11,553 nt of DNA from a virus (lineage: Duplodnaviria; Heunggongvirae; Uroviricota; Caudoviricetes). Shown here piece by piece: positions 6,605-7,768 of this stretch. A model generated the notes under the pieces. It made no database searches. It worked only from the letters and a program-made list of their open reading frames with translations, and was not told the origin of the DNA. Location: positions 1 through 11,553 of the IMG/VR virus record IMGVR_UViG_2675903654_000008. The stretch is one strand, 5' to 3'. A program made the position numbers and the translations under genes. Each line of letters begins with the position of its first letter. Position 1 is the first letter of the stretch.

Positions 6605-6841
6605 ATGAGCGACCTATCATTAACCCAGCCAAAGCTAAAAGAATGTCCGTTTTGCGGCGGTAATGCTCGTCTGTGGGTTGAGGCCGGAATAAATATTGAT
6701 GTGTGGGGCTATGCAGAATGTGACCTCTGTGAAGCCAGGGGGGCATGGGCACCATCAGTTGCTGCGGCGGCTGAAAAATGGAACCGGAGAGCAGGAGATG
6801 AAGCAAACCTTTCTGCTTCGCAACGAAGCAATCAGAAATAA
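6605..6841 (+). CDS. Lar-family restriction-alleviation-like small zinc-binding protein
   Basis: Internal ATG at 6605 with SD AGGAGTG. Product MSDLSLTQPKLKECPFCGG...ECDLCEARGAWAPSVAAAAEKWNRR has the CPFCG / CxxC / (A/K)WNRR pattern I associate with Lar-like proteins. The 3' end overlaps the ninB start. Confidence 0.55.
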   Translation: MSDLSLTQPKLKECPFCGGNARLWVEAGINIDVWGYAECDLCEARGAWAPSVAAAAEKWNRRAGDEANLSASQRSNQK

Positions 6842-7244
6842 CGCCATAGACGCCATTCTCTCACTACCCATCGACGACAAGTCACCCCACGAAGTCCACG
6901 TTAAAGAACCCAAGCGCAGCAAAGCGCAGAATGACCGCATGTGGCCGATGCTGAACGATGTTTCGCGTCAGGTGCTATGGCATGGTCAACGGCTGGCGCC
7001 GGAAGACTGGAAAGACCTGTTCACTGCCCTGTGGCTTAAGACCAAAAAACTGGAGCAAAGAAGTGCGCCTGGTATCGACGGTGGCGTTGTCATGCTTGGC
7101 GTGCGTACCAGCAAAATGCGAAAGGCCAACATGACTGAGCTTATCGAAATCATGTTCTGGTTCGGCTCAGAGCGCAACGTGCGGTGGAGTGATGACTCCC
7201 GGCGAGAGTATGAATGGTCACAACGAAAAGGTAGGGCTGCATGA
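6798..7244 (+). CDS. ninB: NinB (Orf-family recombination protein)
   Basis: From ATG 6798 (SD GGAG). Product aligns with lambda NinB: QNDRMWPMLNDVSRQVLWHGQRL versus QNRKLWACLGDVSRQVEWHGRWL, and a C-terminal ...VRWSDD...EW...RAA. Confidence 0.8.
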   Translation: MKQTFLLRNEAIRNNAIDAILSLPIDDKSPHEVHVKEPKRSKAQNDRMWPMLNDVSRQVLWHGQRLAPEDWKDLFTALWLKTKKLEQRSAPGIDGGVVMLGVRTSKMRKANMTELIEIMFWFGSERNVRWSDDSRREYEWSQRKGRAA

Positions 7245-7768
7245 CTATCAAATCAAATACACCAGCACACGACAAGGACTGCTGGCAAACGCCGCTTTGG
7301 CTTTTTGATGCACTGGATATTGAGTTTGGATTCTGGCTGGATTCAGCTGCGAGCGACAAAAACGCTCTGTGCGCTCACTGGCTAACTGAGGTCGACGACG
7401 CGCTCAATTCTGAGTGGGTAAGCCACGGTGCAATCTGGAATAACCCACCGTACAGCAATATCAGGCCGTGGGTGGAAAAAGCCGCTGAGCAGTGCATACA
7501 ACAGCGACAGACGGTAGTGATGCTTGTGCCAGAGGATATGTCAGTCGGATGGTTCAGCAAGGCTCTGGAGAGTGTCGACGAAGTTCGCATCATCACTGAT
7601 GGACGGATTAATTTTATCGAACCATCGACAGGGCTGGAGAAGAAGGGAAACAGCAAAGGCTCCATGCTGCTGATTTGGCGACCGTTCATCAGTCCTCGAC
7701 GAATGTTTACTACTGTATCCAAAGCGGCATTGATGGCGATCGGGCAGGGCGTCAGGAGGGCGGCATGA
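7241..7768 (+). CDS. phage DNA N6-adenine methyltransferase (Dam-type)
   Basis: 175 aa with [12 protein letters not shown] and NPPY motifs typical of phage N6-adenine methyltransferases. ATGA overlap with the ninB stop. Confidence 0.8.

What the first reader, a model, noticed from the sequence alone, without database searches (positions are those of the whole stretch)
6605..7768. Anti-restriction pair in the nin region: Lar-like protein overlapping ninB, plus a phage Dam methyltransferase
A small Cys-rich Lar-like ORF (CPFCGG...CDLC...KWNRR) overlaps the ninB start by ~44 bp in another frame, and ninB is followed with an ATGA overlap by an N6-adenine methyltransferase (NPPY motif). Together these suggest a compact counter-defence module against host restriction, transcribed with the recombination genes from pR. 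Counter-defence and cargo loci often cluster, which is relevant given the unknown gene in the AT-rich island just downstream.
Basis: partly seen in the sequence, partly recalled or inferred. Interest (0 to 1): 0.45.

Follow-up and report, generated by a model that had tools for sequence, protein, structure and literature searches.

The report
Known Lar-like, NinB, Dam phage genes
This stretch is the ordinary, already annotated Lar-like / NinB / Dam methyltransferase / NinE gene block found in Shiga-toxin-type lambdoid prophages of E. coli, and the two supposed anti-restriction genes are independently shuffled cassettes rather than a dedicated pair.

Summary
A 78-aa Lar-family zinc-ribbon ORF (6605-6841) overlaps ninB (6798-7244) by 44 nt. 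ninB is joined by an ATGA overlap to a 175-aa PF05869/TIGR01712 adenine methyltransferase (7241-7768, NPPY at aa 68-71), which is joined by another ATGA to ninE.

None of this is new. Identical DNA occurs in E. coli chromosomes, where RefSeq already names all four genes. The same block is in Stx phages VT2-Sakai, 933W and AU6Stx1. The methyltransferase is 174/175 identical to the only annotated methyltransferase of VT2-Sakai, which I infer to be M.EcoVT2Dam, cloned in 2001 and cited as GATC-specific.

The "compact counter-defence pair" reading is only partly supported:
- Dam sits behind other NinB alleles with no Lar (58/77 lambda-type loci, 25 of about 77 P22-type loci).
- A Salmonella Lar-like gene (49% identical) keeps the 44-nt overlap with NinB but usually has no Dam.
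- Mosaic junctions fall at the gene boundaries.

The tightly linked unit is therefore Lar-like + NinB.

The function of the Lar family is itself contested: restriction alleviation versus a DNase toxin (RalR). The prototype phage 933W carries a frameshifted copy.

Verdict: ordinary and already known. Low interest.

The parts
5923..5946 (+). tR2-like intrinsic terminator (8-bp GC-rich stem followed by TTTTATTT) after ren. It marks the start of the N-dependent 'nin' region.
   Evidence: The region is 95-100% identical to lambda-like phage ev243 up to about 5966.
5968..6246 (+). Small ORF of the phiTE_015 family, function unknown. It is part of the insertion relative to ev243.
   Evidence: RefSeq annotation of identical DNA. 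PHROG 343, unknown function.
6379..6594 (+). DUF7301 family ORF (71 aa), function unknown, immediately upstream of the Lar-like gene.
   Evidence: PF23975, 91 bits. Annotated as DUF7301 in RefSeq.
6605..6841 (+). Lar-family gene (78 aa). Predicted C4 zinc ribbon (C14, C17, C39, C42) followed by a helix carrying the WNRR motif. Residues 64-78 are encoded in the overlap with ninB.
   Evidence: PF14354 at 41.3 bits, TIGR03655 at 62.3 bits, PHROG 599. 36% identical to Rac Lar/RalR. All invariant family columns are present. AF2 model has pLDDT 82. 78/78 identical to VT2-Sakai orf30.
6738..6743 (+). G6 homopolymer inside the Lar-like ORF. A G7 allele frameshifts the gene to a 56-aa product that lacks the WNRR helix.
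   Evidence: Alignment with 933W and VT2-Sakai. G7 in 933W, and in 4 of 79 IMG/VR copies. EDL933 and Min27 also give two-piece, frameshift-like tblastn matches.
6798..6841 (+). 44-nt overlap between the 3' end of the Lar-like gene and the 5' end of ninB. It is also a mosaic recombination junction.
   Evidence: The overlap and the tail NRRAGDEANLSASQRSNQK are conserved in a Salmonella homologue whose core is only 49% identical. Identity to phage Oslo begins at about 6816.
6798..7244 (+). ninB (lambda Orf family recombination mediator), 148 aa.
   Evidence: PF05772 at 164 bits over the full model; PHROG 72.
7241..7768 (+). Orphan phage N6-adenine DNA methyltransferase (Dam family PF05869), 175 aa. 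NPPY is at nt 7442-7453. ATGA overlaps at both ends.
   Evidence: PF05869 at 217.5 bits, TIGR01712 equivalog at 264 bits. 174/175 identical to VT2-Sakai orf32, the only annotated methyltransferase of that phage. M.EcoVT2Dam is cited as GATC-specific (PMC6602927). PADLOC matches orphan methyltransferase models.
7765..7947 (+). ninE (60 aa, function unknown). It travels with the Dam cassette in ev243.
   Evidence: PF05322 at 145 bits. 97-100% DNA identity to ev243 from 7244 onward.

Best explanation
This is the standard delayed-early 'nin' segment of a Shiga-toxin-phage-type lambdoid prophage of E. coli: tR2, two small unknown ORFs, a Lar-like gene, ninB, an orphan Dam-family methyltransferase, and ninE.

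**Expression (inferred from layout).** The genes are read from pR once N antiterminates tR2. They are translationally packed by one 44-nt overlap and two ATGA overlaps.

**Methyltransferase.** It is essentially M.EcoVT2Dam. It should methylate the adenine of GATC on replicating phage DNA, topping up host Dam when replication outruns it. Virion DNA then leaves fully GATC-methylated. Activity is shown in the literature for a protein I infer to be 174/175 identical. The biological benefit is inferred: protection from GATC-cutting restriction enzymes, or control of mismatch repair or SeqA binding.

**Lar-like protein.** It is a bona fide member of the very large Lar zinc-ribbon family. Its most likely role, by analogy with Rac Lar and lambda Ral, is to push a host type IA restriction enzyme (EcoKI-like) toward methylating unmodified DNA rather than cutting it. 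This rests on 36% identity to a protein whose function is disputed, so I put it at roughly 40%.

**NinB** is the Orf recombination mediator.

**Organisation.** The three genes are separate mosaic cassettes with recombination junctions at their boundaries. Lar-like + NinB is the tightly linked unit. Dam (+ NinE) is an optional cassette in the ninB-ninE slot. There is no dedicated Lar-Dam module.
For: **The block is already annotated.**
- 100% identical DNA occurs in E. coli chromosomes and is named by PGAP as 'Lar family restriction alleviation protein | recombination protein NinB | phage N-6-adenine-methyltransferase | NinE family protein'.
- The same block is annotated in Stx1 phage AU6Stx1, VT2-Sakai and 933W.
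- Some part of window 6300-8000 matches in 2,180 of 5,426 complete E. coli genomes. The whole stretch matches in 487.

**Gene identities.** Profile hits are all above the curated cut-offs.

**Methyltransferase.**
- 174/175 identical to VT2-Sakai orf32. No other methyltransferase is annotated in that phage.
- M.EcoVT2Dam is cited as targeting GATC (PMC6602927, citing Radlinska & Bujnicki 2001).

**Independence of the cassettes.**

| NinB-anchored sample | Lar-like | Dam |
|---|---|---|
| Window-type NinB allele (IMG/VR) | 76/76 | 76/76 |
| Lambda-type NinB | 0/77 | 58/77 |
| P22-type NinB | 0 | 25 of about 77 |
| 75/02-type NinB | none | none |
| Salmonella Lar-like + NinB (6 contexts) | 6/6 | 0 intact; 5 absent, 1 frameshifted |

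- Against ev243, DNA identity resumes exactly at 7244.
- Against Oslo, DNA identity starts at about 6816 and ends at about 7770.

**Transcription.** A terminator lies at 5923-5946 and no + strand promoter-like site follows before ninE.

**Lar family features.** All invariant and near-invariant family columns are present: K12, C14, P15, F16, C17, G18, C39, C42, A55, W59, N60, R62.
Against: - Nothing in the sequence demonstrates activity of either protein in this particular prophage.
- The Lar-like protein scores far below the RalR equivalog model (27.6 versus a cut-off of 113 bits).
- The family is huge: 11,262 representative clusters, many with tandem repeats of the domain. Function transfer from one member is therefore weak.
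- PMC4041452 reports that Rac RalR does not alleviate restriction.
- About 9% of copies sampled, including the prototype phage 933W, carry a disrupted Lar-like gene. The gene is therefore dispensable.
- GATC methylation duplicates a host function, so an anti-restriction benefit is not self-evident. PMC7556043 states that the role of phage Dam enzymes is still not well understood.
- The co-occurrence samples are dominated by closely related E. coli and Salmonella prophages and are not phylogenetically corrected.
Confidence: 0.88

Rival explanations
1. The Lar-like gene and the Dam methyltransferase form a co-selected, compact counter-defence module: one neutralises type I restriction and the other masks GATC sites. 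They are kept together because they act together.
For: - In every informative copy carrying this NinB allele in IMG/VR, both genes are present (76/76).
- Both families are labelled anti-restriction by annotation pipelines. PHROGs places the Lar-like family in the 'moron, auxiliary metabolic gene and host takeover' category. DefenseFinder flags the methyltransferase and Ral proteins in EHEC phages (PMC12502783).
- The genes lie in one tightly packed transcription unit.
Against: - The 76/76 comes from one near-clonal haplotype (NinB at least 97% identical).
- Outside that haplotype the genes separate in every direction. Dam occurs without Lar in lambda-type and P22-type loci, in Oslo and in ev243. 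Lar-like occurs without Dam in Salmonella and in Intestinirhabdus.
- Mosaic junctions lie at the gene boundaries.
- In the phage collection the Dam family is in 1,899 records and the Lar-like gene in 119.
- 933W keeps Dam but has a frameshifted Lar-like gene.
Confidence: 0.12
2. The Lar-like protein is a RalR-type non-specific DNase toxin, as reported for Rac RalR, and not a restriction alleviator. In the phage it would damage or degrade host DNA during lytic growth.
For: - It belongs to the same family as RalR, 36% identical over 58 residues.
- PMC4041452 reports Mg/Ca-dependent DNase activity for RalR and no effect on restriction-modification.
- Four of the six RalR positions whose change reduced toxicity are identical or conservatively replaced here: Y39 to W48, R49 to K58, N51 to N60, K52 to R61.
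Against: - It scores well below the RalR equivalog cut-off (27.6 versus 113 bits).
- There is no RalA antitoxin RNA. Rfam RF02694 finds RalA in Rac at 225 bits but nothing in the window at E up to 1. There is no sequence similarity beyond 10 nt.
- Two toxicity positions differ: C14 to G19 and T37 to G46.
- The predicted fold is a small zinc ribbon plus a helix, with no significant match to any solved structure, nucleases included (best E = 0.17).
- The DNase claim for a 64-aa zinc ribbon rests on one study.
Confidence: 0.1
3. The Lar-like protein works with NinB in recombination or protection of recombination products, not as a general anti-restriction factor. The conserved overlap reflects co-adaptation and coupled expression.
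For: - The Lar-like + NinB overlap and the shared tail persist although the Lar-like core has diverged to 49% identity (about 35-40% identity at the DNA level) in Salmonella prophages.
- This Lar-like gene was found only with this NinB allele group.
- In Rac, lar/ralR lies directly beside recT-recE.
- PMC4041452 relays the earlier suggestion that RalR protects unmodified recombination products.
Against: - Physical overlap alone explains the linkage.
- This NinB allele occurs without Lar in Oslo and in several other genera.
- Other NinB alleles function without any Lar.
- The family consensus already ends in WNRRAxD in unrelated contexts.
Confidence: 0.1
4. The main role of the phage Dam is not counter-defence. 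It acts on phage DNA transactions: keeping GATC sites fully methylated to avoid MutH nicking or mismatch-repair interference with recombination, avoiding SeqA sequestration of replicating DNA, or influencing lysogeny and induction.
For: - The specificity duplicates host Dam, so in E. coli it adds methylation capacity rather than a new mark (PMC6602927).
- It sits among recombination genes, with ninB upstream and ninG downstream in the identical prophage.
- Host Dam is reported to be required for stable 933W lysogeny (Murphy et al. 2008, cited in PMC3342100).
- PMC7556043 calls the function of phage Dam enzymes not well understood.
- GATC is depleted about two-fold in the window (24 observed versus about 46 expected).
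Against: - No direct evidence here for any of these roles.
- The family is widespread in virulent phages of many hosts (T1-like, Vibrio and Lactococcus phages). That breadth fits a general protective function.
- Annotation tools class it as anti-restriction-modification.
Confidence: 0.3

Closest known systems
VT2-Sakai orf30-orf33 (Lar-like, NinB, M.EcoVT2Dam, NinE). The same block is in 933W (L0092-L0094) and in Stx1 phage AU6Stx1.
   Same: Same gene order, same 44-nt overlap and same ATGA overlaps. The Lar-like protein is 78/78 identical and the methyltransferase 174/175 identical. DNA is 98.6-99% identical over 6300-8000.
   Different: - 933W has G7 instead of G6 and so a frameshifted Lar-like gene.
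- What follows ninE differs. VT2-Sakai has ant/roi genes. This window and AU6Stx1 have an AT-rich island with a 590-aa ORF.
Rac prophage Lar / RalR (E. coli K-12 b1348)
   Same: Same Pfam/TIGRFAM family, with the same CPFCG...CxxC...WN(K/R)R architecture.
   Different: - Only 36% identical, and below the RalR equivalog cut-off.
- Rac lar lies beside recT with an antisense-oriented RalA sRNA. This gene lies in the pR nin region, overlaps ninB and has no RalA.
- This protein carries a 15-residue tail encoded in the ninB overlap.
Lambda Ral
   Same: A small phage protein reported to alleviate type IA restriction by accelerating methylation of unmodified DNA (PMC12707154). It is the functional model for Lar.
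   Different: No sequence comparison between the window protein and lambda Ral was run here. PMC4041452 quotes only 24% identity between Ral and RalR. Ral lies in the pL operon.
Small phage Dam enzymes of PF05869 (T1 Dam, HP1 Dam)
   Same: Same family. The 933W record itself notes similarity to the HP1 and T1 methylases. All are orphan enzymes with no partner endonuclease.
   Different: Those are about 30-40% identical and sit in other genomic contexts.
Lambda nin region (ninB-ninC-ninD-ninE)
   Same: Same tR2 terminator and same ninB ... ninE frame. The Dam gene occupies the slot between ninB and ninE.
   Different: Phage Oslo carries lambda-like NinC and NinD in this ninB-ninE slot, after Dam, which indicates that lambda fills the slot with ninC-ninD. 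The lambda-type NinB of ev243 is only about 44-53% identical to this one.

Membership tests
Lar family (Pfam PF14354 / TIGR03655) | Profile score above the curated cut-off | tested here: met
   PF14354 at 41.3 bits (cut-off 28.6). TIGR03655 at 62.3 bits (cut-off 39.6)..
Lar family (Pfam PF14354 / TIGR03655) | Conserved C-P-F-C-G ... C-x2-C zinc-ribbon cysteines and a C-terminal A..WN.R motif | tested here: met
   All 7 invariant and 5 near-invariant columns of a 46-sequence family alignment are present. The AF2 model shows a beta-hairpin ribbon plus a helix, with pLDDT above 90 for residues 11-60.
Lar family (Pfam PF14354 / TIGR03655) | Alleviates type IA (EcoKI) restriction and enhances modification | not testable with these tools
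   Known only for Rac Lar (King & Murray 1995, as relayed in PMC2993543). PMC4041452 contradicts it.
RalR/RalA type I toxin-antitoxin (NF007260) | Equivalog-level similarity to RalR | tested here: not met
   27.6 bits versus a cut-off of 113.
RalR/RalA type I toxin-antitoxin (NF007260) | Adjacent RalA antitoxin sRNA | tested here: not met
   Rfam RF02694 detects RalA in Rac at 225 bits. No match in the window at E up to 1. blastn-short finds matches of at most 10 nt.
Phage N6-adenine methyltransferase, Dam family (PF05869 / TIGR01712; M.EcoVT2Dam, T1 Dam, HP1 Dam) | Profile score above the cut-off over the full length | tested here: met
   PF05869 at 217.5 bits, covering 167 of 169 model positions. 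TIGR01712 equivalog at 264 bits (cut-off 97)..
Phage N6-adenine methyltransferase, Dam family (PF05869 / TIGR01712; M.EcoVT2Dam, T1 Dam, HP1 Dam) | Catalytic (D/N)PP(Y/F) motif | tested here: met
   NPPY at aa 68-71, nt 7442-7453.
Phage N6-adenine methyltransferase, Dam family (PF05869 / TIGR01712; M.EcoVT2Dam, T1 Dam, HP1 Dam) | GATC-specific m6A methylation | not testable with these tools
   Inferred from 174/175 identity to the only annotated VT2-Sakai methyltransferase. M.EcoVT2Dam is cited as GATC-specific (PMC6602927). The 2001 paper itself is not in the library.
Phage N6-adenine methyltransferase, Dam family (PF05869 / TIGR01712; M.EcoVT2Dam, T1 Dam, HP1 Dam) | Orphan enzyme with no cognate restriction endonuclease next to it | tested here: met
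   The neighbours are NinB and NinE. The best PADLOC matches are orphan methyltransferase models.
NinB / lambda Orf recombination mediator (PF05772) | Full-length profile match | tested here: met
   164 bits, model positions 1-131 of 131. PHROG 72.
   All four presence/absence combinations occur. Lar-like is 0/77 and Dam 58/77 with lambda-type NinB. The Salmonella Lar-like + NinB unit mostly lacks Dam. Junctions lie at the gene boundaries.

The most novel reading that the evidence does not exclude
The tightly linked unit is Lar-like + NinB, not Lar + Dam. The 44-nt overlap and shared tail are kept even where the Lar-like core has diverged to 49% identity. In Rac, lar also lies beside recombination genes (recT/recE). 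The evidence does not exclude that Lar-family zinc-ribbon proteins are accessory factors of phage recombination modules, protecting or processing unmodified recombination products. In that case the 'restriction alleviation' label on more than 11,000 protein clusters would be misleading. The G6/G7 tract that switches the gene off in 933W could then be a slippage-prone on/off site.
Probability: 0.1. Interest if true: 0.4.

Novelty: already known. Interest (0 to 1): 0.08.

Why it matters
It matters little as a discovery. The block is routinely annotated. The methyltransferase matches, at 174/175 residues, the phage gene I infer was cloned and characterised in 2001.

The useful outcome is negative. 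Adjacent genes with anti-restriction labels in a lambdoid nin region should not be read as a functional module, because they are independently shuffled mosaic cassettes.

A secondary point is that the 'Lar family restriction alleviation protein' label rests on one disputed protein that is 36% identical. The label is propagated across a very large family. A simple plating-efficiency test of this widespread Stx-phage gene has apparently not been reported in the literature I could search.

Tried and rejected
1. **rRNA methyltransferase of Stx prophage phiPA8 (PMC10810198).** I checked whether it is this gene. It is not: it is an MT-A70, DPPW-motif enzyme at another locus.
2. **Sequence search of the PDB with both proteins.** No meaningful hits. 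There were only weak eL43 zinc-ribbon matches for the Lar-like protein, best E = 0.009.
3. **AF2 with a 3-sequence alignment.** Poor model, pLDDT 56. With 51 family sequences the model reached pLDDT 82. Foldseek against the PDB gave nothing below E = 0.17, only chance-level dsRBD-like topology, so the fold gave no clue to function.
4. **Domain fusions in long Lar-family proteins.** Only tandem Lar repeats were found. One hit, P0035, is probably spurious.
5. **Word-indexed homologue search for the Lar-like protein.** Six proteins only. The exhaustive profile search was needed to see the size of the family.
6. **Genome-contig scan with NinB.** Only 8 loci. Stratified sampling by NinB allele in viral contigs was used instead.
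7. **RalA-like antitoxin.** None found.
8. **PADLOC.** No defence-system match for the Lar-like protein or the 590-aa ORF.

The co-occurrence counts are not corrected for shared ancestry and should be read as qualitative.
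Full report
**1. Observation**

The window is the early-right region of a lambdoid prophage. The gene order, is:

| Feature | Coordinates | Strand |
|---|---|---|
| cI-like repressor | 2623-3273 | - |
| cro | 3354-3539 | + |
| cII | between cro and O | + |
| O, with ori iterons at 4321-4398 | 3974-4912 | + |
| P | 4909-5610 | + |
| ren | 5607-5897 | + |
| nin genes | from about 5950 | + |

- The Lar-like ORF runs 6605-6841 (78 aa) and is preceded by AAGGAG.
- ninB runs 6798-7244, so the two overlap by 44 nt in different frames.
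- The methyltransferase runs 7241-7768 (175 aa), with NPPY at residues 68-71. ATGA stop/start overlaps join ninB to the methyltransferase and the methyltransferase to ninE (7765-7947).

Profile searches confirm every identity above the curated thresholds:

| Gene | Model | Score (bits) | Cut-off (bits) |
|---|---|---|---|
| Lar-like | PF14354 | 41.3 | 28.6 |
| Lar-like | TIGR03655 | 62.3 | 39.6 |
| NinB | PF05772 | 164 | 23.8 |
| Methyltransferase | PF05869 | 217.5 | 28.1 |
| Methyltransferase | TIGR01712 (equivalog) | 264 | 97 |
| NinE | PF05322 | 145 | 25 |

PHROGs agrees.

**2. What it is**

The block is already in the databases under these names.
- DNA 100% identical to 6300-8000 occurs in E. 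coli chromosomes. RefSeq annotates it as "Lar family restriction alleviation protein", "recombination protein NinB", "phage N-6-adenine-methyltransferase" and "NinE family protein".
- Part of this stretch matches in 2,180 of 5,426 complete E. coli genomes. The whole stretch matches in 487.
- In the phage collection, 420 records match, mostly Stx1- and Stx2-converting phages.
- Stx1 phage AU6Stx1 has the same arrangement, including the downstream AT-rich island and HNH gene.
- VT2-Sakai has the same four genes as orf30-orf33. Its Lar-like protein is 78/78 identical and its methyltransferase 174/175 identical to the window's.
- No other DNA methyltransferase is annotated in VT2-Sakai. I therefore infer that orf32 is M.EcoVT2Dam, cloned by Radlinska & Bujnicki in 2001. 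PMC6602927 cites that enzyme as known to target GATC.
- The 933W record already describes its copy as similar to the methylases of HP1 and T1.

**3. Expression context**

- A hairpin followed by a T-run at 5923-5946, directly after ren, is the only terminator-like site in 5500-8600.
- No sigma-70-like promoter lies on the + strand between it and ninE.
- This stretch, up to about 5966, is 95-100% identical to the lambda-like phage ev243.

Together with the overlapping stops and starts, this fits one N-dependent delayed-early transcript from pR. That conclusion is inferred from the layout and is not shown directly.

**4. Is it a Lar-Dam "pair"?**

I sampled NinB-anchored loci from IMG/VR for four NinB allele groups and scored Lar-like and Dam by tblastn.

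| NinB group sampled | Lar-like present | Dam present |
|---|---|---|
| Window-type allele (at least 97% identical) | 76/76 | 76/76 |
| Lambda-type | 0/77 | 58/77 |
| P22-type | 0 | 25 of about 77 |
| 75/02-type (76 loci) | none | none |

- Eight loci from other genera carry an 88-91% identical NinB. Five have Dam only, two have neither, and one (Intestinirhabdus) has the Lar-like gene only.
- A Salmonella Lar-like protein (P0006, 49% identical) overlaps a 93%-identical NinB by the same 44 nt and ends in the same tail, NRRAGDEANLSASQRSNQK. In five of six distinct contexts NinB is followed directly by NinE. In the sixth, the Dam gene is frameshifted.
- Pairwise DNA identity profiles place the mosaic junctions at the gene boundaries:
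  - Against ev243, the window is about 97-100% identical through tR2. It is then unrelated or only about 50% identical until 7240. It is 97-100% identical again from 7244 through Dam and NinE.
  - Against Salmonella phage Oslo, identity starts at about 6816 (the Lar/NinB overlap) and ends at about 7770. Oslo has no Lar, and it has NinC after Dam.
- By tblastn in the phage collection, the Lar-like gene is in 119 records, all E. coli lambdoid or Stx phages. NinB is in 452 records. The Dam family is in 1,899, including virulent T1-like, Vibrio and Lactococcus phages.

I conclude that Lar-like + NinB is the tightly linked unit and that the overlap alone may explain that linkage. Dam is an optional cassette of the ninB-ninE slot. 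The 76/76 co-occurrence reflects one successful haplotype. These samples are not corrected for shared ancestry.

**5. The Lar-like protein**

*Family.* An exhaustive profile search finds 11,262 representative clusters at E of 0.001 or better. Many contain two to five tandem copies of the domain. A 46-sequence alignment gives invariant C14, P15, F16, C17, C39, C42 and W59, and near-invariant K12, G18, A55, N60 and R62. The window protein has all of them.

*Structure.* With 51 sequences, AF2 gives a confident zinc ribbon plus a C-terminal helix (pLDDT 82). No solved structure matches it significantly. No domain fusions hint at a function.

*Comparison with the studied member.*
- The only studied member, Rac Lar (= RalR), is 36% identical.
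- The window protein is far below the RalR equivalog threshold (27.6 versus 113 bits).
[quoted passage not shown] They describe it as a non-specific DNase toxin neutralised by the sRNA RalA (PMC4041452).
- The window has no RalA. The Rfam model finds RalA in Rac at 225 bits but finds nothing in the window.
- Of the six RalR positions whose change reduced toxicity, one is identical here, three are conservatively replaced and two differ.

*Dispensability.* 933W carries G7 instead of G6 at 6738-6743. This truncates the protein to 56 residues without the WNRR helix. EDL933 and Min27 give similar two-piece, frameshift-like matches. Of 79 IMG/VR copies, 72 are intact, 4 carry G7 and 3 are otherwise disrupted or cut.

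The gene is real and mostly maintained, but it is dispensable and its function is unproven. I put restriction alleviation at about 40%. A DNase role and a NinB-linked role each get about 10%. The remainder is unknown.

**6. The methyltransferase**

Activity and GATC specificity are well supported by near-identity to the phage gene I infer was the cloned enzyme. They were not tested here. Its role is not settled.
- It duplicates the specificity of host Dam.
- DefenseFinder-type tools count it as an anti-restriction-modification function (PMC12502783).
- GATC is about two-fold depleted in the window (24 observed versus about 46 expected). There is no GATC site between 5562 and 7738. PMC6602927 reports GATC-free regions in STEC prophages.
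- Protecting virion DNA from GATC-cutting, methylation-sensitive enzymes by completing methylation during rapid replication is the most economical explanation. Roles in mismatch repair, SeqA avoidance or lysogeny control are equally untested.

**7. Comparison and verdict**

This is a member of known kinds in every respect tested. It is an exact or near-exact copy of genes in reference Stx phages. The "compact counter-defence module" interpretation is not supported as a functional unit.

Novelty: already known. Interest: low.

The only mildly interesting residue is twofold. First, the Lar-like + NinB overlap unit is conserved even where the Lar-like core has diverged. Second, a very widely propagated annotation has a weak experimental basis.

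Noticed in passing
window 8000-10700 (ORF 8451-10223, minus strand): AT-rich island (33-35% GC against about 50% in the nin genes) holding a 590-aa ORF on the opposite strand. It has no Pfam, NCBIfam or PADLOC match and falls in PHROG 9230 (unknown function). The N-terminus is Ser/Thr-rich and contains a duplicated LTLNDFLDN motif. The same gene sits at the same place in Stx1 phage AU6Stx1 and in E. coli prophages, annotated as hypothetical.
   Followed up: partly
window 6738-6743: G6 homopolymer inside the Lar-like ORF. 933W and 4 of 79 IMG/VR copies have G7, giving a 56-aa truncated product. EDL933 and Min27 give similar two-piece matches. It could be a decaying gene or a slippage-prone switch.
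   Followed up: partly
window 10539-10597: Perfect hexanucleotide microsatellite, (TATTTC) x 9.8, in the AT-rich spacer just upstream of the HNH/AP2 endonuclease gene (10711-11358). It is a possible length-variable tract near that gene's promoter region.
   Followed up: no
window 5562-7738 and the whole window: GATC is about two-fold under-represented (24 observed versus about 46 expected from dinucleotide content). A 2,176-bp GATC-free stretch spans ren to the end of the Dam gene. CTAG is also strongly depleted (5 observed versus 29 expected).
   Followed up: partly
window 5923-5946: tR2-like intrinsic terminator directly after ren. Relative to lambda-like phage ev243, the segment from about 5967 to 7240 (phiTE_015-family ORF, DUF7301, Lar-like gene and this NinB allele) has no close counterpart, so it looks like a replacement or insertion between tR2 and the Dam cassette.
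   Followed up: partly
window 5968-6246 and 6379-6594: Two small conserved ORFs of unknown function (phiTE_015 family and DUF7301) travel upstream of the Lar-like gene in both E. coli and Salmonella prophages, in variable combinations.
   Followed up: no
window 4321-4398: Array of about 20-bp iterons inside the O gene, the replication origin. AU6Stx1 annotates six such O-binding iterons at the corresponding place.
   Followed up: no
L344 4158-4681 (Salmonella prophage, GCA_022416835.1): A Dam gene 93-95% identical to the window's is split into two reading frames and was not called as a gene, so it is an apparent pseudogene. It lies in a prophage that keeps the Lar-like + NinB unit.
   Followed up: partly
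window 1439-2020 (+) and 846-1295 (-): Two ORFs beside the immunity region with predicted hydrophobic N-terminal segments and no family assignment. There is only a sub-threshold PADLOC hit to a 2TM-TIR model for the 193-aa protein (E = 0.008). The flanking region differs from that of the otherwise identical prophage in strain ESDR8.
   Followed up: no
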